A stretch of 64,000 bases of DNA from Halobacteriovorax sp. (GTDB lineage: Bacteria; Bdellovibrionota; Bacteriovoracia; Bacteriovoracales; Bacteriovoracaceae): positions 2,875 to 66,874 of the forward strand of contig JAIFLR010000067.1 in assembly GCA_020048985.1 (NCBI GenBank). Reading direction: 5' to 3'. This document shows, in pieces, positions 8,800-18,921 of the stretch (positions are counted from its first letter, which is position 1; each line of letters begins with the position of its first letter). The position numbers and the translations under genes were made by a program. The notes under the pieces are model-generated. The model saw nothing but the letters and a program-made list of their open reading frames with translations, ran no database searches and was not told the origin of the DNA.

Positions 8800-10227
8800 G
8801 TGGTCGTTAAAAGGTTTCGTTTAATTAGTAGTCTTTTTATTTCTACTCTCAGCATCAATTCTGCTTTTGCCCTACCTATCGACTGGACCGGGGTGTTTGG
8901 TGTGGACACTCATATGTTGAGCAATACTTGTCGCACGAGTGATGATGTCGTTAAGGTCTCTACTAATAGAAATGGTACTCAGGGTATTACAGGTGACTGC
9001 GACGCCAATTTTCAAACCTATATTATGAAACTTAATCCCCAGATCATCGTCAATGATGGTGTAACTCTTAAAGGGGAACTTTCAACTGGCCATATCCGTG
9101 GTGGTATTGCCGGCGACAATTCGGCCAATAACCAAGACGAATCCGGAAATAACGCCTATTTCTTTACTACTCCGGCCCAAAACAGCGCCTTGAACGTCAA
9201 TCAGATGTACATGGAACTTTATGCTGATACTGCCTTAGTTAAAATTGGTCGCATGAGCAAACAGTATGGTCTTGGTATTGTTTATGACGCCGGTAATGAT
9301 CCTTGGGATCGTTTCTTTTCAATGTATGATGGGATTGAAGCAGAAATGAAGATTGCTAATTTCAGCCTAGTTCCTTATTACGCTAAGATTTCAAGTTTAA
9401 ATAATGACAACTCTAAAGCTGAACCATCTGGAAGTTATGATGTGCGTGAACTTGGTGTGACAGCAAAATATGATAACAAAAATAGGGACCTGGTGGTCAG
9501 TGTTCTTTACGCCAAGAGATCATCAGAAAGTAAAAACAACCTTTATAATTCAGACACAGAGGACAGTACTGCGACATCTCTTCGTGGCAAAACTTCCGTA
9601 ACAGTCATTGAGCCTTTCATTTCGAAAAAGTGGAATAAACTAAAAGTTGCTCTTGAAGCCTCGATCCAGTCGGGTGAATATGGTGATGTTTACAAAGATA
9701 ATACTGGCTCATCTAAGCTTTCAGCGAATGCCTATATCCTTGATGCGAAGTACGAACTTAATCCTAAATGGGATGTCGGATTTACTGGTGGCCAAGTCAG
9801 TGGAGATAAAGGTGATACTGGTAAATTTGAAGCGACTTATCTTCATCCGAACTACCAGATTGCTGACCTGATGTTTAAATACAACTATGCAGCCTTTACT
9901 GAGGGCGGAAGAAGTGTTTTTGATTCTTCTATCACAAATACTCGATTCTATAAATTTCACGGGCATTACAAATCTGATAAATGGACGTGGAAAGGTGCTT
10001 TAATTATGGCAACAGCGCTGGAAACAGCTGAAGCTGGAAAACGTTCTTATCACCACGAAGAAAGTTATTCATTCCAAAGTACCGAAGACCAGGACAACGA
10101 TCTAGGATTTGAGCTTGATTTTGGATTCGACTATAAGTGGAATCCAAATGTAACGATCAGTGCCTACTATGGTTATTGGAAAGTGGGAGACTACTATTCC
10201 TTCACTAACACCAGCGAAGAATTCTAA
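8800..10227 (+). CDS. outer-membrane beta-barrel (porin-like) protein, family unknown
   Basis: GTG start with GGGAG RBS, signal peptide ...SINSAFA, alternating beta-strand pattern, and C-terminal ...SEEF aromatic end. Followed by a strong terminator. Confidence 0.7.
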   Translation: MVVKRFRLISSLFISTLSINSAFALPIDWTGVFGVDTHMLSNTCRTSDDVVKVSTNRNGTQGITGDCDANFQTYIMKLNPQIIVNDGVTLKGELSTGHIRGGIAGDNSANNQDESGNNAYFFTTPAQNSALNVNQMYMELYADTALVKIGRMSKQYGLGIVYDAGNDPWDRFFSMYDGIEAEMKIANFSLVPYYAKISSLNNDNSKAEPSGSYDVRELGVTAKYDNKNRDLVVSVLYAKRSSESKNNLYNSDTEDSTATSLRGKTSVTVIEPFISKKWNKLKVALEASIQSGEYGDVYKDNTGSSKLSANAYILDAKYELNPKWDVGFTGGQVSGDKGDTGKFEATYLHPNYQIADLMFKYNYAAFTEGGRSVFDSSITNTRFYKFHGHYKSDKWTWKGALIMATALETAEAGKRSYHHEESYSFQSTEDQDNDLGFELDFGFDYKWNPNVTISAYYGYWKVGDYYSFTNTSEEF

Positions 10228-10236
10228 AACAGAAAA

Positions 10237-10261
10237 GCCCTCGCAAGAGGGCTTTTTTTTT
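10237..10261 (+). terminator. rho-independent terminator
   Basis: GCCCTC-GCAA-GAGGGC hairpin followed by a T9 run. Confidence 0.8.
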
Positions 10262-11855
10262 ACTTGAATCTAAAAACCCCTCGAGGACACTCACCAGGCA
10301 CGAGATTTTGAAACTCTTCCGTTCCTTTGAAAACTTTGACCTTATTTCTCCATTCAGCTCCCGCCTTACAAAAAACTTCGATATCAGAGCAACCTTGATT
10401 GGATGGTTCCTGGCCGAAACTTTCCTTCAAAACGGCTTCCGGTTTTGCCGTCATTGATGGGCAGGTCTGATAAGTTCGCTCCTGAATGAAGTCATCATTC
10501 AAAATGACTTCAAGTTCTGTAATCATAGATGTGTAGACGTAGTTAACAGAAGTCTTGGTTTCTTCAATTTTTACTGCTGATGGCTTTGGTGATGCTTTCT
10601 TTACAATCGAATCCATCACTTTATTTTTTTGTTTTTCAATTTCGACTTTGATCTTTTTATAATACTCCTCAGGGCTTTTTGCGACCAATGTTTTGGAGAA
10701 CTCTATAATTGGTGCCATCATGGAATAGAGTTCTTCTAGCGAGAAGTATCCCAGTTTATTAGACTCTGCCATGGCTTTAAGAAAATTGAACTTATCTTTG
10801 TCCCGGTACATTTCTAATCTTTCACTCAAGACCGCAGCAGGTAGAGTAGATTTGAGGCTCAAAAAATATTCATCTCGTTTATAGGCGGACTCCATTTCTG
10901 TCAGGGCGCCCAGACATGATGGATCCAACCGGCATAACTCTTTTTTCTCGTTATCCAGACATCCACCAAAACGTCCTTTTTTATTACAATGATAAATAAT
11001 TTCAAACTTATTTGGTGTAGCAGGATCAAGTCTAATGACACTCATCAGACTGCCAGCGTTTTTTAGCATAAGCATATCTGGAAAATTAACAGGCCTGTGG
11101 TACTCTGCCTTAGATTCACAATTAAATAGACCTAGTGACCAAGTTTCAAACTTAAAGTCGTACTGAGTGAGAGCATGTTCATCTTTAAGCTGCTGGAAAA
11201 TTATTTTTTGATCATTGATTAACAATTCATTTTTTTTAATCTTTGCCACTGATTCTTCTGGGTAGAAGAGTGATTTTTCAATTTTTGCTTTGGTGTCCAC
11301 TATTTCTTGGTCCAGGGACTGTTGCATATTTTTTTCGCGGATAATATAGTCGTGCATTTTTTCAAAATCTTCAGCGATGCTTTTCTCCATATCATTAAGA
11401 GTGAACAAAAGCGCCTTGGCTTGATTATACTTACCCGCTTTAACACTCTCGATGTAACGATTTAATCTTTTGGAATAAGCTTGATGGTACTCAAGCTCTT
11501 TGAGTTTTTTTTGATTTTTCTTATATGTTTCACGCTCATTAATAACTTCTTTTAATTCGGCCAACTCTTTTTTAATTCTTGAAGTCTCAACAAAGTAGTT
11601 AGCTAAAGAGACTTCTTTTTCACTTGTTCCCACCGCATTTAAAATCGATGAAAGAACATCAGTATCCTTTTTAAGCATTTTGGGAGTTGAATAAATTTCA
11701 AGTTCTTGCTTGAATTCCTTTATTTCGTTTTGTATTCGATCAGACTCGGAGATGAATTGATCAATGGCTTTAATTCTTTCTTCGAAAGTTAGAGTTTGAG
11801 CAATCGCGACAGAAACGAACATTAAATTCAAAAGTATAAAAATATTTTTAAACAT
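10260..11855 (-). CDS. secreted coiled-coil protein with Cys-rich C-terminal part, unknown function
   Basis: 531-aa ORF with signal peptide MFKNIFILLNLMFVSVAIAQ, a long K/E-rich heptad-like region, and multiple Cys in the last ~250 aa. Confidence 0.7.
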   Translation of the reverse strand: MFKNIFILLNLMFVSVAIAQTLTFEERIKAIDQFISESDRIQNEIKEFKQELEIYSTPKMLKKDTDVLSSILNAVGTSEKEVSLANYFVETSRIKKELAELKEVINERETYKKNQKKLKELEYHQAYSKRLNRYIESVKAGKYNQAKALLFTLNDMEKSIAEDFEKMHDYIIREKNMQQSLDQEIVDTKAKIEKSLFYPEESVAKIKKNELLINDQKIIFQQLKDEHALTQYDFKFETWSLGLFNCESKAEYHRPVNFPDMLMLKNAGSLMSVIRLDPATPNKFEIIYHCNKKGRFGGCLDNEKKELCRLDPSCLGALTEMESAYKRDEYFLSLKSTLPAAVLSERLEMYRDKDKFNFLKAMAESNKLGYFSLEELYSMMAPIIEFSKTLVAKSPEEYYKKIKVEIEKQKNKVMDSIVKKASPKPSAVKIEETKTSVNYVYTSMITELEVILNDDFIQERTYQTCPSMTAKPEAVLKESFGQEPSNQGCSDIEVFCKAGAEWRNKVKVFKGTEEFQNLVPGECPRGVFRFK

Positions 11856-11868
11856 TTTAGCTCGCTAT

Positions 11869-11892
11869 AAAAAAAGCCCTCAAAATGAGGGC
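11869..11892 (-). terminator. rho-independent terminator after the 707-aa gene
   Basis: GCCCTC(11876-81)/GAGGGC(11887-92) hairpin. The A-run 11869-75 is a U-run on the minus transcript. Confidence 0.7.
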
Positions 11893-11918
11893 TTTGGAAA
11901 TTTATTATTTGATACTAA

Positions 11919-14042
11919 TTAACGATTACCACCATACATATTATAGCCGCCATAGGCCTGGTATGGATTGTTCCAGTAACCTTGGCCTTGTTGACCTTGT
12001 TGATACTGTTGTCCTTGCTGCTGGTAAGGATTCGAGTACTGCTGCTGACCAAACATACCCTGTTGCTGATACGGGTTGTATTGTTGCTGCTGTTGTTGTT
12101 GCTGGCCATAGTATCCATACTGGCCGCCACCCATATTTCCACCAAAATTAGCACCTACATTGAACTGAGCGCCATAGTTTTGCTGACCCATAAAGTTTTG
12201 TTGCTGGTAAGGGTTGTATTGTTGTTGTTGCTGCTGCTGATAAGGATTGGTTTGTTGATTAAACATCCCTTGTTGCTGATAGGGATTTGTATAGGATTGC
12301 TGGCCATTATTGGCGTACTCCTGCTCATTTCTCTTAACAGGAACAGTGTTGTCCACCTGTGGAGTCGGCTCATTAACTTCTTCACCATTTTGTCTGGCGA
12401 CGTACTGCCGTCCTTCTTTTTCAAGTGCTGCATACTCAGTTGCTTTTTGATCAAACTCAACAGCTCTCTCGGCATCTACTTTATTAAAATGCTGTAACTG
12501 TGCCTGAAGCTCCTGAATTCTCTCCATTGAGTTCTGAATACAACGTTGAACATTTCTGAATGGGTTCTTATAACAATAGCCGCCCTGCTGAGTGCGAGCA
12601 TACTCTTCCTGGATTTCCTGACTAAAGTTTTGCGAACGCGTCTGAATATTTTGTCTCATTCTTGAAGCGAGCGCAGAATAATTCTGGGCCTGTCCAGTCG
12701 TCTGACCAGTACGTACTTCAAATTTTTCTTTCGTCGACTCTAGTTCAAGAGCATAAGCTTCTTTAAAGTTTTGCACCCGAGATTTTGCGACCTCAGGAGT
12801 AATGACAACGCCTGCATCTTTAGCTCCAAGCCTTGCGTGGGCAACAACCAGAGCGTAAATACTATGAGCTTGAGCTGCTTCAGTGAATCTTCCATCACTT
12901 TCAAGCTTTCTTACAAGAGCAGTAGAAATAAATGGCGCTTTATTGAAGGCGGAAACCTCAGCTAATACTTTTTTCATCTGCTCAATACGAACCGCCCTCT
13001 CTTCACCTTCTAAACCTTCGGCTTCAGTATAAAGAATGTTTGCGAGATCGATTTTAGGTTGAACAACATATCTTTCAAAGTCAGCGATCGTTTTTAGATC
13101 ATCTTCTGTATATTTTCCTTCAGTGATCGCTTTAGATGCTTTTTTTACGGCCTCAATGATTAGATTGTCTCTAATTGCGTTTAGATCTTCTGAATACCCT
13201 TGGTATTTTTCGATAAAATGAGCGATCTGCTCATAATCTCCGCAAGTACTGACTTTTTCTTTTTCAATTTGGATGCGTTCATTTTCTTCTTGGGCCAGGG
13301 ATTTAATCGTTAAACCCTCTGCAGAAATTTTCTCGTAATGATCACACTTGTCGATTTCAACAAAGTTTTTATCATACTTAGGTTTAACCAGTTTTGATGA
13401 AGGACCATGAGAAACGAACAACAATTCGCCACTTTCTTTATATCCATCAAACTTCTCACTCACAGCAGATGGATAGATAGCATCAGCAACGACCTTCCCC
13501 TCTTTCACAACCCCCGACTTCTCAAGGCAAGACTCAAACCCTTGCATCGTAGGAGCCATTTTAATTTTTTCAAAATCTTTAAATTGACCTTTTTCTACTT
13601 TAGCAACATCGTAACTACACAATCCATCTACGCAATCTTCTCCACTTTTAATTCTGGCTTCGATTGAATAGATTCTTTTTTCATCTACAACTCGGACATT
13701 TGGTACCCATTCAATCATAGAAGAACAGTTACCTATCATATCTCCCGACTTAACAGTTAACTTGCCATTTCTAGGGTCATGTTGAAGTTCGAGTTTTCCA
13801 TCTTTCTCTAAAATTAAAGCTGTAATATAGGCTAAAGGAAGAGAGGTCTGTACCTTTTCAGTACAAGCACCAGAAGATTTTGTTTTAACCACAGGTTCAA
13901 CTTTGACTTCAGTTGAGCTGGTCTGGGTTGAATTAGGCTTAGGAACAATCTCACTTTGATATTTTTCAAGAGTACCAAGTACGCTTTGAGCATAGCTAGG
14001 GATAGTGAGAACGGACAACATGACTACAGCAAACATTTTCAT
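11919..14042 (-). CDS. secreted protein with central coiled-coil and C-terminal Q/N/Y/G-rich prion-like low-complexity domain
   Basis: 707-aa ORF with signal peptide MKMFAVVMLSVLTIPSYAQ. The last 130 aa are Q/N/Y/G-rich with six NPYQ repeats. Confidence 0.8.
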   Translation of the reverse strand: MKMFAVVMLSVLTIPSYAQSVLGTLEKYQSEIVPKPNSTQTSSTEVKVEPVVKTKSSGACTEKVQTSLPLAYITALILEKDGKLELQHDPRNGKLTVKSGDMIGNCSSMIEWVPNVRVVDEKRIYSIEARIKSGEDCVDGLCSYDVAKVEKGQFKDFEKIKMAPTMQGFESCLEKSGVVKEGKVVADAIYPSAVSEKFDGYKESGELLFVSHGPSSKLVKPKYDKNFVEIDKCDHYEKISAEGLTIKSLAQEENERIQIEKEKVSTCGDYEQIAHFIEKYQGYSEDLNAIRDNLIIEAVKKASKAITEGKYTEDDLKTIADFERYVVQPKIDLANILYTEAEGLEGEERAVRIEQMKKVLAEVSAFNKAPFISTALVRKLESDGRFTEAAQAHSIYALVVAHARLGAKDAGVVITPEVAKSRVQNFKEAYALELESTKEKFEVRTGQTTGQAQNYSALASRMRQNIQTRSQNFSQEIQEEYARTQQGGYCYKNPFRNVQRCIQNSMERIQELQAQLQHFNKVDAERAVEFDQKATEYAALEKEGRQYVARQNGEEVNEPTPQVDNTVPVKRNEQEYANNGQQSYTNPYQQQGMFNQQTNPYQQQQQQQYNPYQQQNFMGQQNYGAQFNVGANFGGNMGGGQYGYYGQQQQQQQQYNPYQQQGMFGQQQYSNPYQQQGQQYQQGQQGQGYWNNPYQAYGGYNMYGGNR
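11922..12311 (-). repeat. CAA/CAG-rich coding low-complexity repeat (poly-Q/N tail of the 707-aa protein)
   Basis: Runs of ttgttgctgctg on the plus strand. They translate as Q7-8 runs and NPYQQQ repeats on the minus strand. Confidence 0.9.
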
Positions 14043-14105
14043 AAACGCCTCAAAGTTGAGTTAACCCAATTCCTATTCGGGTATCAACACTGAGAACTTA
14101 AGCAT

Positions 14106-16106
14106 TTAGAGCATATTGTAGGGATCGACATCGATTTTGTAGCTAACTGAACTTAGGGACTTGTAATTCATTTCGAATGTTTTCAAAAGGTTATGAAGTT
14201 GAGTCAGGTCTTTTGACTTAAGAAGAATTGACCAACTAAATTGGTTTGATTTCTTTTCAATGTGGGCCGGGCGAGGTCCTAATATCGTGACCTCGGGAAA
14301 ATTGGTCGCAATCAATGAACGGAGCATAGGCCCCACTTGTTCGCTTACATGTGGAATCAGTCTTTCCTGAAAACGAGATGAAAAATGAATCATCGCCAAA
14401 CGTTTATAAGGTGGGCATTCACAAAGTTCACGAATTTTGAGTTCCTCTTTATAAAATTGATCAAAATCGTGATTTTTTATAATCTCAAAAAGTTTATTTT
14501 CTGGATTCAGCGTTTGAATCATGACTCGGCCATCTTGAGAGTAGCGACCAGCGCGACCAGAAACTTGAGTGAGTGTCTGATAAACCCTTTCGGATGATCT
14601 AAAATCGGGAAAATTAAGCTGACTGTCAATTCCAAGGATCAAAACTAGTTTCACTTTTTCAAAGTTATGACCTTTTGAAAGCATCTGAGTTCCCACCATG
14701 AGATCAACTTTACCTTGGTGAAAATCATCTAACCTTGTCTCTAGTTGCTTGAAGGTTTTTATTTCTTCCCGGTCAAAGCGTTCAATAACTTTTTGGGGAA
14801 ATTGTTTCACCAGAACGTCTTGAATTTTTTCTGTACCAAAGCCTTTATGGGAAAGTGTCAGGCAAGAACATTTAGGGCATTGATTTGGTAGAGGCTCTTT
14901 GTATTCACAGTGATTGCAGGCCAGAATACTTTTGCGGCGATAATATCTCAAAGTCACAGAACAATTAGGACAGTTAAATTGGTGGCCACATGCACGACAC
15001 TGCATATAATTTGCAAACCCCAGTCTATTTACAAAAACCAGAACTTGCTCATTTCTTGCGAGTGCTTCACCAATGGCGGCCATTGATTTAGGTGTCAGAG
15101 GCCAGATATCGAGTTCTTTATCCACTTTTTCTCGAGCATCAATTAATTCGACTGATGGTAAAAATGCATTCCCTGCTCTTTCCCTTAATTCAAAAAGGTT
15201 GGCCTTACCGGCATCACTATGAAAAGCGGAGTAGCTTTCAATTGAAGGTGTAGCAGATCCCATCACCAGTGGGATCTTGAGTAGCTGGGCTTTTTTCGTC
15301 GCCACGTCCCGTGCATTATAAGGACATCGGTCATCTTGCTTAAAAGAAGTGTCATGTTCTTCATCGATGACAATAAGACCTAGGTTTTTAAGTGGGATAA
15401 AAACCGAACTTCGAACTCCCAAAATGAGAGTTGGTTCGCTGTTGGTTCGTGCGGTTTGCCATATCTGATATTTTTGAGAATCCGAAAGCTCTGAGTGATA
15501 TGAAAGTATCGATGCTTTTAAGTACCTGGAAAAAGTTGAAGTAAACTGGGGAGTAAGGTTAATTTCTGGTAAGAGAAATAGAACACTTTTGCCACCCTCT
15601 AAGGTCTTTTTGATCAGATCTAGATAGACCGCAGTCTTTCCACTTCCAGTCACTCCATGAACTAAGTACCTGTTAAATCCCGTTAACCCTTTTCTAATTT
15701 CTTCCGTTATATAATTTTGTTTGGTGTTGGGAATAAACTCCAGGTCTTTTCCTTCACCCTGAGTTTTTTCAAGTGCTCGAGGCCTTTTAAGTGAGTTGGG
15801 CAAACAATCAAAAATCACTTGTCCGAGACTATAGTGATAGTAGCTTGCCATCCATTCAAAAAGTTGCAATTCATTTTCATCAAGAGTTGAGTCAGGAATC
15901 AATTGGAGAATCGTTTTAATTTTGTCTTGTGGAGTATTTTTATATTCCTGGGAATGAGATTCATCGACTGATATGACACAGCCTAGAGCTTTCCTCTTGC
16001 CCAGTGGAACCTCTACAACCTGACCCCGATGAAGCTCGCCCTCATAGTGATAGAGAAGGCCGGCATTTTTAAGCGGATAATTGACGGCGACTCTGGCTAC
16101 TTTCAT
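14106..16106 (-). CDS. priA: primosomal protein N' (replication restart helicase PriA)
   Basis: GVTGSGKTAVYL Walker A, DEEHD box, and Cys4-Cys4 zinc cluster (CRACGHQFNCPNC...CNHCEY...CPKC). Confidence 0.9.
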   Translation of the reverse strand: MKVARVAVNYPLKNAGLLYHYEGELHRGQVVEVPLGKRKALGCVISVDESHSQEYKNTPQDKIKTILQLIPDSTLDENELQLFEWMASYYHYSLGQVIFDCLPNSLKRPRALEKTQGEGKDLEFIPNTKQNYITEEIRKGLTGFNRYLVHGVTGSGKTAVYLDLIKKTLEGGKSVLFLLPEINLTPQFTSTFSRYLKASILSYHSELSDSQKYQIWQTARTNSEPTLILGVRSSVFIPLKNLGLIVIDEEHDTSFKQDDRCPYNARDVATKKAQLLKIPLVMGSATPSIESYSAFHSDAGKANLFELRERAGNAFLPSVELIDAREKVDKELDIWPLTPKSMAAIGEALARNEQVLVFVNRLGFANYMQCRACGHQFNCPNCSVTLRYYRRKSILACNHCEYKEPLPNQCPKCSCLTLSHKGFGTEKIQDVLVKQFPQKVIERFDREEIKTFKQLETRLDDFHQGKVDLMVGTQMLSKGHNFEKVKLVLILGIDSQLNFPDFRSSERVYQTLTQVSGRAGRYSQDGRVMIQTLNPENKLFEIIKNHDFDQFYKEELKIRELCECPPYKRLAMIHFSSRFQERLIPHVSEQVGPMLRSLIATNFPEVTILGPRPAHIEKKSNQFSWSILLKSKDLTQLHNLLKTFEMNYKSLSSVSYKIDVDPYNML

Positions 16107-17101
16107 TAAAGAACAAATGACGGCTTAGGTTCAACAGATTCTTTCCCTTTAAGTAAGCCGTCCCATTTTTTGAGCCGGTTTATTAGCTCAGACTCTTTTT
16201 CGATATAGTGGCGAAGGTTCAGGATTTCAACTTGAAAAATCTCACCCTTATAGTCTTTTATAACTATGTACCTAGGTAGTGCATGAGTACCATTGGCGAG
16301 CCAATGCTCTTTACAAGAAATTTCATAATCACCGAGTTGAGACTTATATTTAATTCTTTGAATCTCACGGTCCTTATAGGAAACAACGGCTTCAAATGAT
16401 CCAGCACTTATGAGCCATGCCATCTCTCCATTTTCTCTGGATAGCTTCACCTGATGTTGATCAACATACAAAGGTTCATTCATCACAGCATCAACTTTTT
16501 CTCTGGCAATTGGGTCTTCAGGCTTAAGTGGATTAATCTCGGTTTTTTTCGAACTGCGGTCTTTGTTGATTGCAATCAAATACTGCTTATAACTCGCCAG
16601 GCTCGTTACTTTTTGCCGATTGATGATCTCGCTATTCAATTTTACAGGAACCGGTAATGATTTTAAATAATTAATTAAAAATGCCCCCTCATTAAAAATC
16701 ATAGAAATGAGCATTCCTTGGAATATGCCTTTTTCAGTTTCTTCGACAGAACTCTTATTTGTAAAGGACGTGAAATTGGGGAAATAGATTTTTTCCAATA
16801 ATGATGATTCACTAAAAGTTGAATTTGAGTATCGGGTTTGAGCAACCTTAAAGACATCTTTGTTTATTCGAGTGAAAAACATTTTATAGAAATCTTCGCT
16901 CTTTGATTCATTCAGCAAAGAGGTCTCACCCTTGGTAGCTTTTTTGGTACTTAAGTCGATTTTTTTTACAACAAACGTCAGGTTGACTCCGTTGGCAGTA
17001 ACATCCGGGTTTGAACCATGCCGAAACAATGACTCAACTGTTGGCACGTAAGCATAAGCACTAGTGATCATTAACAACAAAAAAACCAAGGACTTCATCA
17101 T
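16106..17101 (-). CDS. secreted hypothetical protein
   Basis: 331-aa ORF with signal peptide MMKSLVFLLLMITSAYA. It has an ATGA overlap with the galU stop and a TAATG overlap with the priA start. Confidence 0.7.
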   Translation of the reverse strand: MMKSLVFLLLMITSAYAYVPTVESLFRHGSNPDVTANGVNLTFVVKKIDLSTKKATKGETSLLNESKSEDFYKMFFTRINKDVFKVAQTRYSNSTFSESSLLEKIYFPNFTSFTNKSSVEETEKGIFQGMLISMIFNEGAFLINYLKSLPVPVKLNSEIINRQKVTSLASYKQYLIAINKDRSSKKTEINPLKPEDPIAREKVDAVMNEPLYVDQHQVKLSRENGEMAWLISAGSFEAVVSYKDREIQRIKYKSQLGDYEISCKEHWLANGTHALPRYIVIKDYKGEIFQVEILNLRHYIEKESELINRLKKWDGLLKGKESVEPKPSFVL

Positions 17102-17982
17102 AACGTTATTCCATATTTATTCATTCGGTATTTCAGCGATTCAATGAATTTTTCTTTTATCGCAGGATCTTTTAATGCGAAATCGATAGTGGCATCAAGA
17201 TAGCCGTGAATATTCCCGGTATCAAATCTTTCGCCTTCAAACTTGTAGGCAAAAACATTTTTTTTCTGACATAGAATATTTATCGCATCAGTTAATTGAT
17301 ACTCGTTTCCTGCTCCACGTGGGATTTTTTCTAAGATTCCAAAAATCTCGGGAGTTAAGATATATCTGCCCGGAGTTGCCAGATTAGTTGGGGCATCTTC
17401 AGGTTTAGGCTTTTCTACCATCCCCGTCATTCTCAAGGTTCGCTCATTAATGACTTCGCCTTTAACAATCCCATATTTTGCAGTTTCTGCTTTTGGCACT
17501 TCCATCACTCCAATGACGTTTGCCCCATCATTTTGAACAGAAACTTCCATCAATTGCTGGATCGCCGGTTTAGGATTTATGACGATATCGTCTCCAAGCA
17601 ACACTGCAAATGGTTCACCCTCAACCATATTTTTCGCCATCAAAACTGCGTGACCTAATCCCAACTGCTCTTTCTGTCTTACCGCCGTAATTTCAACCAT
17701 TGAGCCTATTTTTCTTACCAGTTCGAGTTCCTTAATTTTATTATTTCTTTCAAGATACGCTTCAAGTTCTAAATTTCTGTCAAAATAATCTTCTACTGAG
17801 AATTTCCCGGAAGAAGTTACAAAAATAATTTGCTCTATTCCTGCTTCAACAGCTTCCTGGACAATATAATGAATCATCGGAACATTGATGATCGGAATAA
17901 TTTCTTTGGCTATCTCCTTCGTTGCTGGGAGAAAGCGCGTACCTTTACCGGCAATTGGAATGATGGCTTTTTTGATTTTCAT
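17098..17982 (-). CDS. galU: UTP--glucose-1-phosphate uridylyltransferase
   Basis: KAIIPIAGKGTRFLPATKEIAKE and LGLGHAV motifs. Confidence 0.9.
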   Translation of the reverse strand: MKIKKAIIPIAGKGTRFLPATKEIAKEIIPIINVPMIHYIVQEAVEAGIEQIIFVTSSGKFSVEDYFDRNLELEAYLERNNKIKELELVRKIGSMVEITAVRQKEQLGLGHAVLMAKNMVEGEPFAVLLGDDIVINPKPAIQQLMEVSVQNDGANVIGVMEVPKAETAKYGIVKGEVINERTLRMTGMVEKPKPEDAPTNLATPGRYILTPEIFGILEKIPRGAGNEYQLTDAINILCQKKNVFAYKFEGERFDTGNIHGYLDATIDFALKDPAIKEKFIESLKYRMNKYGITL

Positions 17983-18024
17983 AAAACCCTTGTTTTAAAG
18001 ACTTTTTTTCTCTACATTTTTTGT

Positions 18025-18921
18025 ATGAAGAAAGTTTATATTTTAGCGTTGATGCTCTTAATGGGCCAGTCATCATGGGCCCAAATCCGTGAATTTCAAA
18101 CTTCTCGTCTTGTGTCGACCGCAGGTGCGGGAGTGGCCAGTGTGCTAAGCACGGAAGCGGCGATATTGAATCCTGCAACATCCACTTTTTTTGAAGGCTC
18201 AAGCTTCTCCTATCAACGATATACAACATCTTTACGCAACCAGAGCGAAGAACGTCAAACAGCCAATGATGACTTTCCAGGTCAGAATACCACTCAGGGT
18301 CTATTTATGGCCGACCATGACGGTCCAGTTAAGGGCGGCGTGGCGTATCTGAAGCAGGACGAAAATAATTATGAACGCGAACATATTATTACCCATGGCG
18401 CAGCACCCATAGGGGAATCTACGAGCATGGGACTTTCCTATCGATACCTTCAGGATATTCTTCCCAAGGGCTCTTCGAATCGCCACCAAAGCAGCCATCA
18501 ACTCACCGCTGGCCTGCTGCAAATTGTAGATGAAAAAACCGTAGTGGGTTTAGTTTTAGTAGACCCCACTCGTACCACTCCCAACGAAGAGCGCCTAATT
18601 GCTGGGCTTCAATACGCATTTGCCGACAAACTAACTCTCATTGCAGATATTGGGACCCAGTACACAGAAGATGTGAAGGATAAATACCTATGGCGTGGAG
18701 CTCTTCAGCTTCAGCTTTTTGATGATTTTTTCTTTAGGGCGGGAAAATTTTACGACAATATTCGTGGAACCAAGGGCTTTGGATGGGGTGCTGGATGGAT
18801 CGGTCCTCGACTTGGAGTGGAATTTGCACAAAGTTTATCAGATCAGTTTAGTGATAATTCTTATATTTATCACAACGAAACACTGGTAGATACTTCAATC
18901 TCGGCTATCATTAAGTTCTAA
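18025..18921 (+). CDS. outer-membrane beta-barrel protein, family unknown
   Basis: The internal ATG gives MKKVYILALMLLMGQSSWAQ as signal peptide. The protein ends ...SAIIKF. The track start 17830 would overlap galU on the opposite strand. Confidence 0.7.
   Translation: MKKVYILALMLLMGQSSWAQIREFQTSRLVSTAGAGVASVLSTEAAILNPATSTFFEGSSFSYQRYTTSLRNQSEERQTANDDFPGQNTTQGLFMADHDGPVKGGVAYLKQDENNYEREHIITHGAAPIGESTSMGLSYRYLQDILPKGSSNRHQSSHQLTAGLLQIVDEKTVVGLVLVDPTRTTPNEERLIAGLQYAFADKLTLIADIGTQYTEDVKDKYLWRGALQLQLFDDFFFRAGKFYDNIRGTKGFGWGAGWIGPRLGVEFAQSLSDQFSDNSYIYHNETLVDTSISAIIKF

What the first reader, a model, noticed from the sequence alone, without database searches (positions are those of the whole stretch)
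11922..12311. Secreted bacterial protein ending in a 130-aa Q/N/Y/G prion-like domain with six NPYQ repeats
The last 130 residues of the 707-aa signal-peptide protein read NNGQQSYTNPYQQQGMFNQQTNPYQQQQQQQYNPYQQQNFMGQQNYGAQFNVGANFGGNMGGGQYGYYGQQQQQQQQYNPYQQQGMFGQQQYSNPYQQQGQQYQQGQQGQGYWNNPYQAYGGYNMYGGNR. By my hand count this is 46 Q, 17 N, 19 Y and 22 G, or 80 percent of residues. There are no charged residues except the terminal R, and no long aliphatic stretches. This composition is typical of yeast prion and FUS-like phase-separating domains and is rare in bacteria, especially on an exported protein. Possible roles are a self-assembling adhesive or amyloid-like surface matrix, or a condensate-forming extracellular or periplasmic scaffold. 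These are inferences. The CAA/CAG repeat DNA is also a potential slippage-prone, length-variable tract.
Basis: partly seen in the sequence, partly recalled or inferred. Interest (0 to 1): 0.75.

Follow-up and report, generated by a model that had tools for sequence, protein, structure and literature searches.

The report
Exported predator protein with Sup35-like tail
An uncharacterised exported protein of predatory Bacteriovorax-type bacteria ends in a 130-residue, uncharged glutamine/asparagine/tyrosine/glycine tail that resembles a yeast prion domain. The tail is kept in every relative found and is under strong purifying selection, so it is a real functional element, but what it does is still unknown.

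Summary
Window 11922-12311 (minus strand) encodes the last 130 residues of a 707-aa signal-peptide protein: Q46 N17 Y19 G22 (80%), six NPYQ, one charged residue.

- **Not a slippage accident.** All full-length homologues have an uncharged low-complexity tail of about 134 aa (about 150 clusters at 50% identity). Every named source is Bacteriovoracia.
- **Selected.** dN/dS in the tail is 0.012-0.032, against 0.026-0.046 in the folded part.
- **Structured as a pattern.** It has conserved anchor motifs, a C-terminal tyrosine-every-third-residue motif, and aromatic residues spaced more evenly than chance.
- **Disordered.** AlphaFold2 gives pLDDT of about 30 for the tail. The beta domain (pLDDT 96) and helical bundle match nothing in Pfam, NCBIfam or PDB.
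- **Ordinary context.** The locus is a rigidly syntenic housekeeping region with no curli- or Fap-like genes.

My best reading, which is inference, is an envelope scaffold whose sticker-and-spacer tail gives multivalent self-association or docking. Function remains untested.

The parts
14048..14051 (-). Shine-Dalgarno-like GAGG, 5 nt upstream of the ATG
   Evidence: Read directly from the sequence.
13989..14042 (-). Signal peptide, aa 1-18 (MKMFAVVMLSVLTIPSYA|QS); Sec/SPase I type with no lipobox cysteine
   Evidence: Sequence. The N-terminal consensus MKK..LS..T.P.YAQ is conserved in 70 homologues. No SignalP run was available.
13293..13880 (-). Beta-rich domain, aa 55-250, holding six of the nine conserved cysteines (C60, C106, C137, C142, C172, C233)
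   Evidence: AF2 pLDDT 96.2 and pTM 0.90. Best Foldseek match in PDB has E=0.14 and TM<0.2. Conserved cysteines.
12390..13292 (-). Long-helix bundle, aa 251-551, ending in a 54-residue helix
   Evidence: AF2 pLDDT mostly above 90. Only generic helical-repeat matches with E>=0.05.
12312..12389 (-). Charged, proline-containing linker, aa 552-577, between the last helix and the tail
   Evidence: pLDDT falls from 85 to 43 here. Alignment.
11922..12311 (-). The finding: the uncharged Q/N/Y/G tail, aa 578-707, predicted disordered. Layout: three NPYQ units, a G/N/F core, two NPYQ units, then the terminal motif (which holds the sixth NPYQ)
   Evidence: pLDDT about 30; dN/dS 0.012-0.032.
12105..12194 (-). 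Conserved central core of the tail, aa 617-646 (NFMGQQNYGAQFNVGANFGGNMGGGQYGYYG)
   Evidence: MGQQ.Y..QFN.GANFG and YGYYGQ are conserved blocks in alignments A2 and A3.
11922..11981 (-). C-terminal motif, aa 688-707 (GYWNNPYQAYGGYNMYGGNR), with an aromatic residue every third position
   Evidence: This is the best-conserved part of the tail; P693 is nearly invariant. Among the 114 closer relatives (216 full-length members were analysed), aromatic lag-3 is enriched 1.7x and lag-2 is 0.17x.
11873..11895 (-). Intrinsic-terminator-like hairpin plus T-run, 24 nt after the stop codon (11919-11921)
8800..10227 (+). Outer-membrane beta-barrel gene (475 aa), the conserved convergent neighbour. Listed as context and a candidate partner only
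   Evidence: Sub-threshold matches to Alginate_exp and TIGR04551. Present tail-to-tail with the orthologue in essentially every locus where the contig extends far enough. The whole region is syntenic, so linkage proves nothing.

Best explanation
The gene encodes a Sec-exported, disulfide-stabilised envelope protein specific to the predatory class Bacteriovoracia. It sits in the periplasm or on the cell surface.

The protein has two folded modules of unknown fold: a beta domain and a long-helix bundle. These carry a C-terminal, intrinsically disordered 'sticker-and-spacer' tail.

- **Stickers:** evenly spaced Tyr/Phe/Trp/Met residues.
- **Spacers:** uncharged Gln/Asn/Gly/Pro.

Together these would give many weak, reversible contacts. 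The protein would then self-associate into a cohesive network (condensate or gel) or bind multivalently to an envelope polymer. The conserved terminal tyrosine-every-third-residue motif would act as a docking element for peptidoglycan glycan strands or a partner such as the neighbouring outer-membrane protein.

**Shown:** export signal, disorder, composition, family-wide conservation, purifying selection, even aromatic spacing.

**Inferred:** self-association, its material state, the compartment, and any docking partner.
For: - **Exact composition, and the only such segment in the window**.
- **Every full-length homologue keeps an uncharged low-complexity tail.** This holds across 116 clusters at 90% identity and 147 at 50%, down to profile E=1e-16. 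Median tail length is 134 aa. D+E+K+R make up 4% of the tail against 30% of the folded part. The median number of charged residues in the last 120 aa is 2.
- **Purifying selection.** Tail dN/dS is 0.012-0.032 (about 6 non-synonymous differences in about 320 sites), against 0.026-0.046 in the folded part. In a sister cluster the tail is 183/184 identical while the N-part has up to 19 changes.
- **Disorder.** AF2 pLDDT is about 30 for aa 574-707, beside folded domains above 90.
- **Even aromatic spacing.** The window protein has z=-2.4 against shuffles. The family median is z=-1.29 and 84% of 216 members are below 0. A control segment from the folded domain gives -0.18. Adjacent aromatic residues are depleted to 0.23-0.33x. 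This is the layout reported for phase-separating prion-like low-complexity domains (bioRxiv 10.1101/2021.01.01.425046; PMC9748015).
- **Conserved motifs separated by indel-variable Q runs**.
- **Export.** The signal peptide and nine conserved cysteines fit an oxidising extracytoplasmic compartment.
- **Precedent.** Cell-surface CsgF phase-separates through Phe residues (PMC10133297).
Against: - No experiment or physics-based predictor was run. PLAAC, PAPA and amyloid predictors were not available.
- Conservation shows function but not which function. A passive tether with a terminal docking motif would also be conserved.
- The compartment is unknown.
- The folded domains give no functional clue, and the neighbourhood is housekeeping.
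- dS is near saturation and rests on only about 65 synonymous sites in the tail, so the dN/dS ratios are rough. The low number of non-synonymous changes does not depend on dS.
- The shuffle control for aromatic spacing ignores relatedness among family members.
Confidence: 0.4

Rival explanations
1. Flexible tether with a terminal docking motif. The tail is mainly an uncharged spacer of about 130 residues. Its only specific function is to present the conserved C-terminal motif (GYW..PYQAY..Y.MYG.R) to a partner such as an outer-membrane protein or the peptidoglycan glycan. No self-assembly is involved.
For: - The last roughly 20 residues are the best-conserved part of the tail, and P693 is nearly invariant.
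- The motif has a specific period-3 aromatic pattern not seen in the rest of the tail.
- Tail length is held within a band (IQR 113-156 aa).
- An outer-membrane barrel gene is always the convergent neighbour.
Against: - A pure spacer would not need about 18% aromatic residues evenly spaced along its whole length.
- It would not need near-total exclusion of charge across the family.
- It would not show dN/dS of 0.012-0.032 over all 130 codons.
- Internal motifs (MGQQ.Y..QFN.GANFG; G.Y.F.W/YQG) are conserved too.
- The neighbour association is uninformative because the whole region is syntenic.
Confidence: 0.25
2. Functional amyloid subunit, curli- or Fap-like. After export the tail converts to cross-beta fibres that form a surface matrix or adhesin.
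For: - Q/N richness passes the 30-in-80 criterion, with 42.
- Composition is very close to Sup35 N (reference sequence from memory).
- Alternating aromatic motifs such as GY.F.YQG and GGY.F.WGG occur in most relatives.
- The protein is extracytoplasmic, like known bacterial amyloids.
Against: - There is no regular strand-loop-strand repeat. NPYQ spacings are 13, 11, 46, 15 and 21.
- There is no Curlin or Fap Pfam match.
- No CsgG, CsgB, CsgE, CsgF or FapF-like genes lie within about 10 kb on either side.
- Prolines are interspersed throughout: 5% here and 8% in the family.
- Q exceeds N 2.7-fold, and aromatic residues are spread evenly rather than clustered. From general knowledge of prion-like domains, all of these disfavour amyloid nucleation.
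- A 560-aa folded cargo is unlike amyloid subunits.
Confidence: 0.15
3. Covalent cross-linking substrate. The Tyr- and Gln-rich tail is cross-linked (dityrosine, or Gln-Lys isopeptide) into an insoluble or elastic envelope layer, as with resilin, glutenin or cornified-envelope proteins.
For: The evidence is composition only. The tail is 15% Tyr and 35% Gln, sits in an extracytoplasmic protein, and is attached to a folded part with about 10% Lys. Extracellular low-complexity proteins are known in chitin matrices (PMC9629831).
Against: No peroxidase or transglutaminase gene is evident among the neighbours examined. There is no direct evidence of any kind.
Confidence: 0.07
4. Membrane anchor or OMP-type beta-signal. 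The tail forms beta-strands that insert into the outer membrane, like a trimeric autotransporter anchor, or it mimics an OMP C-terminal signal.
For: - The overall layout (signal peptide, head, helical stalk, C-terminal region) recalls trimeric autotransporters.
- Distant members end in aromatic-x-aromatic strings such as ..YNFNF or ..FTFGF.
- 67 of 216 members end in F, W or Y.
Against: - V+L+I is about 3.6% of the family tail and 1 residue in 130 here.
- AF2 predicts no strands, with pLDDT about 30.
- There is no YadA_anchor or autotransporter Pfam match.
- The window protein, and 115 of 216 members, end in Arg. The neighbouring genuine OMP ends ...SEEF.
Confidence: 0.03
5. Non-functional low-complexity expansion, or a mis-called ORF.
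For: Low-complexity Q runs can arise by replication slippage. Small Q-run length differences do exist among close relatives.
Against: - The tail is conserved across the whole family.
- dN/dS is 0.012-0.032 while synonymous sites are near saturation.
- A ribosome-binding site and a terminator flank the ORF.
- CAA and CAG codons are mixed.
- The antisense poly-Leu ORFs (11982-12497 +) are by-products of TTG/CTG.
Confidence: 0.01

Closest known systems
Sup35 N-domain type yeast prion domains (Q/N-rich PrLDs)
   Same: - The repeats are alike: QQYNPYQQQG here, PQGGYQQYN in Sup35 (the Sup35 repeat is from my own knowledge).
- Both are predicted disordered and have almost no charge.
   Different: - This protein is exported through Sec into an ATP-free, chaperone-poor compartment, so cytoplasmic prion inheritance and Hsp104-type propagation cannot apply.
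- The tail is C-terminal rather than N-terminal.
- It is attached to unrelated folds.
- There is no homology; the resemblance is compositional.
- Prion or amyloid behaviour is untested.
Bacterial predicted prion-like proteins (Clostridium botulinum Rho, Campylobacter SSB; surveys PMC8409284, PMC6400439)
   Same: It is a bacterial protein with a Q/N-rich disordered segment. The surveys already report enrichment of such segments among cell-wall, secretion and outer-membrane proteins.
   Different: Harrison 2019 (PMC6400439) finds bacterial prion-like character to be sporadically conserved. Here it is present in every full-length family member across a whole class and is under purifying selection. 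The validated bacterial examples are cytoplasmic nucleic-acid-binding proteins.
CsgF surface condensate and curli (CsgA/CsgB) functional amyloid (PMC10133297)
   Same: These are extracytoplasmic, low-complexity, aromatic-dependent self-associating proteins of a Gram-negative envelope. CsgA and CsgB are Q/N/G/S/Y-rich.
   Different: - No curli operon genes, Curlin repeats or CsgG-type channel are present.
- The tail has irregular motif spacing and many prolines.
- It is attached to a 560-aa folded protein.
FUS / hnRNPA1-type prion-like low-complexity domains (sticker-and-spacer phase separation)
   Same: Aromatic residues are evenly spaced within polar uncharged spacers. Aromatic content is about 18%, and clustered aromatics are depleted.
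   Different: - Spacers are Q/N rather than S/G (Jensen-Shannon divergence to FUS LC 0.186).
- There is no Arg-rich partner domain and no RNA-binding context.
- The protein is extracytoplasmic.
FG-nucleoporin cohesive domains and elastomeric Q/G/Y/P proteins (HMW glutenin, resilin)
   Same: These are uncharged, aromatic-punctuated, Q/N/G-rich disordered polymers that form gels or elastic networks. Some distant family members carry dense GFG/NGF or GMG repeats (P0161, P0150).
   Different: The window protein has only two FG dipeptides. No pore or matrix context is known. This is an analogy only.

Membership tests
Q/N-rich prion-like domain (Michelitsch-Weissman / Alberti-PLAAC sense) | At least 30 Q+N in a window of 80 residues | tested here: met
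   The window protein has 42 in its best 80-aa window. 88 of 116 homologues reach 30 or more.
Q/N-rich prion-like domain (Michelitsch-Weissman / Alberti-PLAAC sense) | Intrinsically disordered, with few charged and few aliphatic residues | tested here: met
   AF2 pLDDT is about 30 for aa 574-707. The tail has 1 charged residue and 1 aliphatic residue (V) in 130.
Q/N-rich prion-like domain (Michelitsch-Weissman / Alberti-PLAAC sense) | PLAAC HMM core score or PAPA score above the published cut-offs | not testable with these tools
   Neither program nor its parameter tables were available. I did not reconstruct them from memory.
Q/N-rich prion-like domain (Michelitsch-Weissman / Alberti-PLAAC sense) | Forms self-templating amyloid that propagates heritably | not testable with these tools
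   This needs C-DAG or Sup35-fusion assays and in-vitro seeding. Export makes heritable propagation unlikely (inference).
Curli / Fap functional amyloid subunits | Match to the Curlin repeat or Fap family models | tested here: not met
   No Pfam or NCBIfam hit for the protein or for any of 70 family members.
Curli / Fap functional amyloid subunits | Regular imperfect strand-loop-strand repeats | tested here: not met
   NPYQ units lie at irregular spacings of 13, 11, 46, 15 and 21. TRF finds only two very short DNA arrays.
Curli / Fap functional amyloid subunits | Operon with a dedicated secretion channel and nucleator (CsgG/E/F/B or FapF/B) | tested here: not met
   The neighbours are PriA, an NTP-transferase, Prs, Pth, YchF, SLT, LptF/G, Def and Fmt. 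There is also one unclassified beta-barrel on the opposite strand.
Sticker-and-spacer phase-separating low-complexity domain (FUS/hnRNPA1-like) | Aromatic residues spread uniformly along a polar, low-charge disordered chain | tested here: met
   The coefficient of variation of aromatic gaps is 0.49, z=-2.4 against 500 shuffles. The family median is z=-1.29, and a folded-domain control gives -0.18.
Sticker-and-spacer phase-separating low-complexity domain (FUS/hnRNPA1-like) | Demonstrated concentration-dependent demixing | not testable with these tools
   This requires purified protein.
Trimeric autotransporter / OMP beta-signal | C-terminal amphipathic beta-strands forming a membrane anchor, with a terminal aromatic residue | tested here: not met
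   No strands are predicted. There is no YadA_anchor hit. The protein ends in Arg, and V+L+I is 1 in 130.
Any described protein family for the folded part | Sequence or fold similarity to Pfam, NCBIfam or PDB entries | tested here: not met
   - Pfam and NCBIfam: nothing.
- PDB profile search: 0 hits.
- Foldseek: best E=0.054 for the full model and E=0.14 for the beta domain at pLDDT 96.

The most novel reading that the evidence does not exclude
The family could be a class-wide, selected example of protein phase separation or gelation outside the cytoplasm. A Sup35-like tail would build a cohesive, uncharged, aromatic-crosslinked phase in the ATP-free periplasm or on the surface of predatory Bacteriovoracia. 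Such a phase might work as a sealing or adhesive gel, or as a selective barrier at the envelope or the predator-prey interface. It would be anchored through a tyrosine-ladder motif whose period (about 9 Å if polyproline-II) would match the disaccharide repeat of peptidoglycan glycan strands.
Probability: 0.12. Interest if true: 0.85.

Novelty: new variant of a known kind. Interest (0 to 1): 0.55.

Why it matters
Predicted prion-like domains in bacteria are usually sporadic within a family. The validated ones (Rho, SSB) are cytoplasmic.

Here a Sup35-like segment sits on an exported protein. It is kept in every member of a family spanning a bacterial class and evolves under constraint at least as strong as the folded domains. 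That makes it a clean natural system for two questions:

- What does such a sequence do where there is no ATP and no disaggregase?
- Does the sticker-and-spacer grammar worked out for eukaryotic condensates apply in the bacterial envelope?

It also flags a core, lineage-specific envelope protein of bacterial predators whose two confidently modelled domains have no counterpart in Pfam or PDB.

Tried and rejected
**Searches that found nothing**
- Pfam and NCBIfam on the protein, and Pfam on 70 family members.
- PDB sequence searches with the family profile and with the tail alone: 0 hits each.
- Foldseek against PDB with the full model and with a separate high-confidence beta-domain model: no hit with E<0.05.
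- PDB sequence searches for the neighbouring OMP and for the 331-aa upstream protein: no hits.

**Inconclusive**
- A profile of tails alone searched against 5.8 billion proteins returned only three C-terminal fragments of the same family. Even full-length members did not score, so the test cannot say whether other families share the tail.
- I looked for functional hints from gene context in very distant members. Synteny is the same everywhere, so it gives no discrimination.

**Ideas rejected**
- That the downstream 531-aa secreted protein is a paralogue: hhalign probability 0.14%.
- Trimeric-autotransporter anchor or OMP beta-signal (see rivals).
- That the tail is a triplet-repeat tract.

**Not attempted**
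- PLAAC and PAPA, because I would have had to rebuild their parameter tables from memory.
Full report
**1.

The minus-strand ORF 11919..14042 encodes 707 aa. Window 11922-12311 translates to the quoted 130 residues: Q46, G22, Y19, N17 (80%), six NPYQ, one charged residue (the terminal Arg), one Val, and no Leu or Ile.

Against the composition of residues 1-577, the enrichment in Q+N has binomial P=1e-28. The near-absence of charge has P=3e-18. The best 80-residue window holds 42 Q+N, against the classical cut-off of 30. No other ORF in the 64-kb window has such a segment.

The N-terminus MKMFAVVMLSVLTIPSYA|QS has the layout of a Sec/SPase I signal. GAGG sits 5 nt before the ATG, and a hairpin plus T-run follows the stop by 24 nt. 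The Leu-rich ORFs on the plus strand (for example 11982-12497) are antisense by-products of CAA/CAG.

**2. It belongs to a compact, unannotated family of predatory bacteria.**

Searching with residues 1-577 found 116 clusters at 34-100% identity. All full-length ones are about 670-756 aa. The only names given are 'hypothetical protein' from Peredibacter starrii and Bacteriovoracaceae or Bacteriovoracia MAGs.

An exhaustive profile search of 1.84 billion representatives found only 147 clusters. A scan of one genome per GTDB species gave 41 loci. All are labelled Bacteriovoracaceae, Halobacteriovoraceae, Bacteriovoracales, Bacteriovoracia, Peredibacter or 'Bacteriovorax stolpii', or carry generic phylum labels.

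There is no Pfam or NCBIfam model for this protein or for any of 70 members.

**3. The tail is a family character, not an accident of this genome.**

Every full-length member ends in an uncharged low-complexity region, including those barely detectable by the profile. Over 216 full-length sequences:

| Measure | Tail (last 120 aa) | Folded part |
|---|---|---|
| Main composition | Q 22%, G 15%, Y 11%, N 10%, P 8%, M 7%, F 5% | not biased this way |
| D+E+K+R | 4% | 30% |

The median number of charged residues in the tail is 2, and the median tail length is 134 aa (IQR 113-156). In the most distant members the bias shifts towards Met/Gly or Asn/Phe/Gly, but the tail stays uncharged.

In 548 kb of related loci, the orthologues are the only ORFs with such segments.

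**4. It is under purifying selection at the amino-acid level.**

I compared the window gene with two relatives at 90% identity or more (L044, L045).

| Region | Non-synonymous differences | dN/dS |
|---|---|---|
| Tail | about 6 in about 320 sites | 0.012-0.032 |
| Residues 20-577 | 30-61 | 0.026-0.046 |

In both regions synonymous sites are heavily substituted. dS is near saturation and rests on about 65 sites in the tail, so the ratios are rough. The low non-synonymous count does not depend on that.

In a sister cluster the tail is 183/184 identical while the N-part differs at up to 19 positions.

**5. The tail has internal architecture.**

Alignments of close and distant tails show conserved anchors separated by indel-variable Q runs:
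- G-Y-x-F-x-Y/W-Q-G near the start (degenerate in this protein);
- NPY(Q) units;
- M-G-Q-Q-x-Y..Q-F-N-x-G-A-N-F-G;
- Y-G-Y-Y-G-Q;
- in many lineages a second G-G-Y-x-F-x-W-G-G;
- the best-conserved element, the C-terminal Q-G-Y-W-x-x-P-Y-Q-A-Y-x-x-Y-x-M-Y-G-(G-Y)-R.

In the last 18 residues of the closer relatives, aromatic residues recur every third position: lag-3 is 1.7x expectation and lag-2 is 0.17x. In the rest of the tail lag-2 is mildly favoured and lag-3 is depleted.

Aromatic residues are spaced more evenly than in shuffled tails. The window protein has z=-2.4. The family median is -1.29, and 84% of members are below 0. A folded-domain control gives -0.18. Adjacent aromatic residues are strongly depleted.

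Within this protein the layout is three NPYQ units, a G/N/F core, two more units, then the terminal motif, which holds the sixth NPYQ. Unit spacings are irregular: 13, 11, 46, 15 and 21.

**6. Length variability is real but modest.**

Gln codons are 25 CAA and 21 CAG, interleaved, and the longest run of one codon is four. TRF reports only a 9-bp x 2.4 and a 12-bp x 2 array.

Relatives at 90% identity or more differ by one or two Gln in the Q6 and Q8 runs. In a sister cluster, two proteins are identical or differ at one position across residues 1-554 (554/554 and 553/554), yet their tails carry indels totalling 12-13 aa. These comprise a 9-aa repeat-unit deletion plus 3-4 further Q/S residues.

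So slippage or unequal recombination does act on the tail, but within tight limits.

**7. The rest of the protein.**

AlphaFold2 with a 70-sequence alignment gives:
- a beta-rich domain (aa about 60-250) at pLDDT above 90;
- a bundle of long helices (aa 250-551) at pLDDT above 90;
- pLDDT of about 30 for aa 574-707.

A separate model of aa 55-250 reaches pLDDT 96 and pTM 0.90. Foldseek against PDB finds nothing significant for either model: best E=0.054 for generic helical repeats, and E=0.14 with TM<0.2 for the beta domain. A profile search of PDB sequences finds nothing.

Nine cysteines are conserved, which fits an oxidising compartment.

**8. Genomic context.**

The order is NTP-transferase, a 331-aa protein, PriA, this gene, then a convergent 475-aa beta-barrel OMP, then Prs-Pth-YchF. 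This order recurs in essentially all loci, including a member at profile E=2e-16.

The neighbourhood is otherwise housekeeping: SLT, LptF/G, Def, Fmt, Rpe and the Hut enzymes. There are no curli, Fap or secretion-system genes. Because the entire region is syntenic, the constant OMP neighbour is a lead, not evidence of partnership.

In this lineage a 531-aa secreted coiled-coil protein is inserted between the gene and the OMP. It was found in the window and in six of the 48 fetched loci. It is unrelated to the family.

**9. Interpretation.**

The following are shown: an exported protein; a disordered Sup35-like tail; family-wide retention; exclusion of charge; even aromatic spacing; conserved motifs; strong purifying selection.

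From what is established for prion-like low-complexity domains, this is the sequence grammar of multivalent, reversible self-association. In that grammar aromatic stickers sit in polar spacers, Tyr is the strongest sticker, net charge opposes demixing, and uniform spacing opposes aggregation (bioRxiv 10.1101/2021.01.01.425046; PMC9748015).

I therefore favour an envelope scaffold whose tail builds a cohesive network or binds a polymer multivalently, with the terminal Tyr-period-3 motif as a docking element (confidence 0.4). If that motif adopts a polyproline-II-like conformation, the tyrosines would line one face about 9 Å apart. That is close to the disaccharide repeat of beta-1,4 glycans such as peptidoglycan. 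This last step is pure inference.

The rivals are:
- a passive tether presenting the terminal motif (0.25);
- a curli-like amyloid (0.15), disfavoured by interspersed prolines, Q>N, irregular repeats, even aromatic spacing and the absence of accessory genes;
- a covalent cross-linking substrate (0.07);
- a membrane anchor or beta-signal (0.03), contradicted by composition, the model and the terminal Arg;
- junk (0.01).

A true heritable prion is implausible for an exported protein.

**10. Comparison with what is known.**

By composition the tail is nearer to Sup35 N than to FUS LC: Jensen-Shannon divergence 0.054 against 0.186.

Surveys estimate prion-like domains in about 0.3% of bacterial proteins. 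They report enrichment in cell-wall, secretion and outer-membrane categories (PMC8409284, PMC6400439). So an exported bacterial example is not in itself unprecedented.

What is unusual is the depth and strength of conservation. Harrison found bacterial prion-like character to be sporadic within families (PMC6400439).

CsgF gives a precedent for an aromatic-dependent condensate at a Gram-negative surface (PMC10133297).

The family itself, and its two folded domains, are undescribed in the libraries searched.

**11. Verdict.**

The feature is real and selected. Function is unknown and all mechanistic statements are inference. I rate it a new variant of a known kind, with interest 0.55.

Noticed in passing
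window 10260-11855 (-): This ORF encodes a 531-aa signal-peptide protein with a coiled-coil N-half and a Cys-rich C-half, and no family match. It sits between the tail protein and the OMP only in the window and in six of the 48 fetched loci (L005, L006, L007, L015, L044, L045), at 26-51% identity. It is therefore a fast-evolving lineage-specific insertion. It is not a paralogue of the 707-aa protein (hhalign probability 0.14%).
   Followed up: partly
window 8800-10227 (+): This ORF encodes a 475-aa outer-membrane beta-barrel with sub-threshold matches to Alginate_exp and TIGR04551. It is always convergent with the tail-protein gene. At 40-83% identity (60-83% in all but the most divergent locus, L042) it is better conserved than that gene. 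In L047 the two stop codons abut. A bidirectional terminator hairpin lies at 10231-10258.
   Followed up: partly
window 13293-13880 (-), aa 55-250: This is a beta-rich domain modelled at pLDDT 96 and pTM 0.90. Its best Foldseek match in PDB has E=0.14 and TM<0.2, so it may be an undescribed fold.
   Followed up: partly
window 11922-11981 (-), aa 688-707, and orthologues: The C-terminal motif has an aromatic residue at every third position (PYQAYGNYNMYGGYR type). This pattern is conserved across the closer family. The rest of the tail instead favours alternate-position aromatics.
   Followed up: partly
window 11919-14042 (-), Cys at aa 60, 106, 137, 142, 172, 233, 267, 490, 501: There are nine conserved cysteines, an odd number. 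One may be free or may form an intermolecular disulfide. I did not check this in the model coordinates.
   Followed up: no
window 16106-17101 (-) and 17098-17982 (-): A 331-aa protein with no Pfam or PDB match is translationally coupled (overlapping stop/start) to an NTP-transferase upstream and to PriA downstream. This arrangement is conserved in all loci.
   Followed up: no
P0150, P0161, P0166, P0137 (distant family members): Tails in distant members shift to other uncharged biases: GMGGMNPMMMGG repeats, NGFNNGFG (FG-nucleoporin-like) repeats and MPQMG repeats. What is conserved across the family is 'uncharged, aromatic- or Met-punctuated, disordered', not Q/N richness as such.
   Followed up: partly
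window 17830-18921 (+) versus 17098-17982 (-): A 363-aa TTG-start ORF overlaps the 5' end of the NTP-transferase gene by about 150 nt on the opposite strand. The true start is probably further downstream.
   Followed up: no
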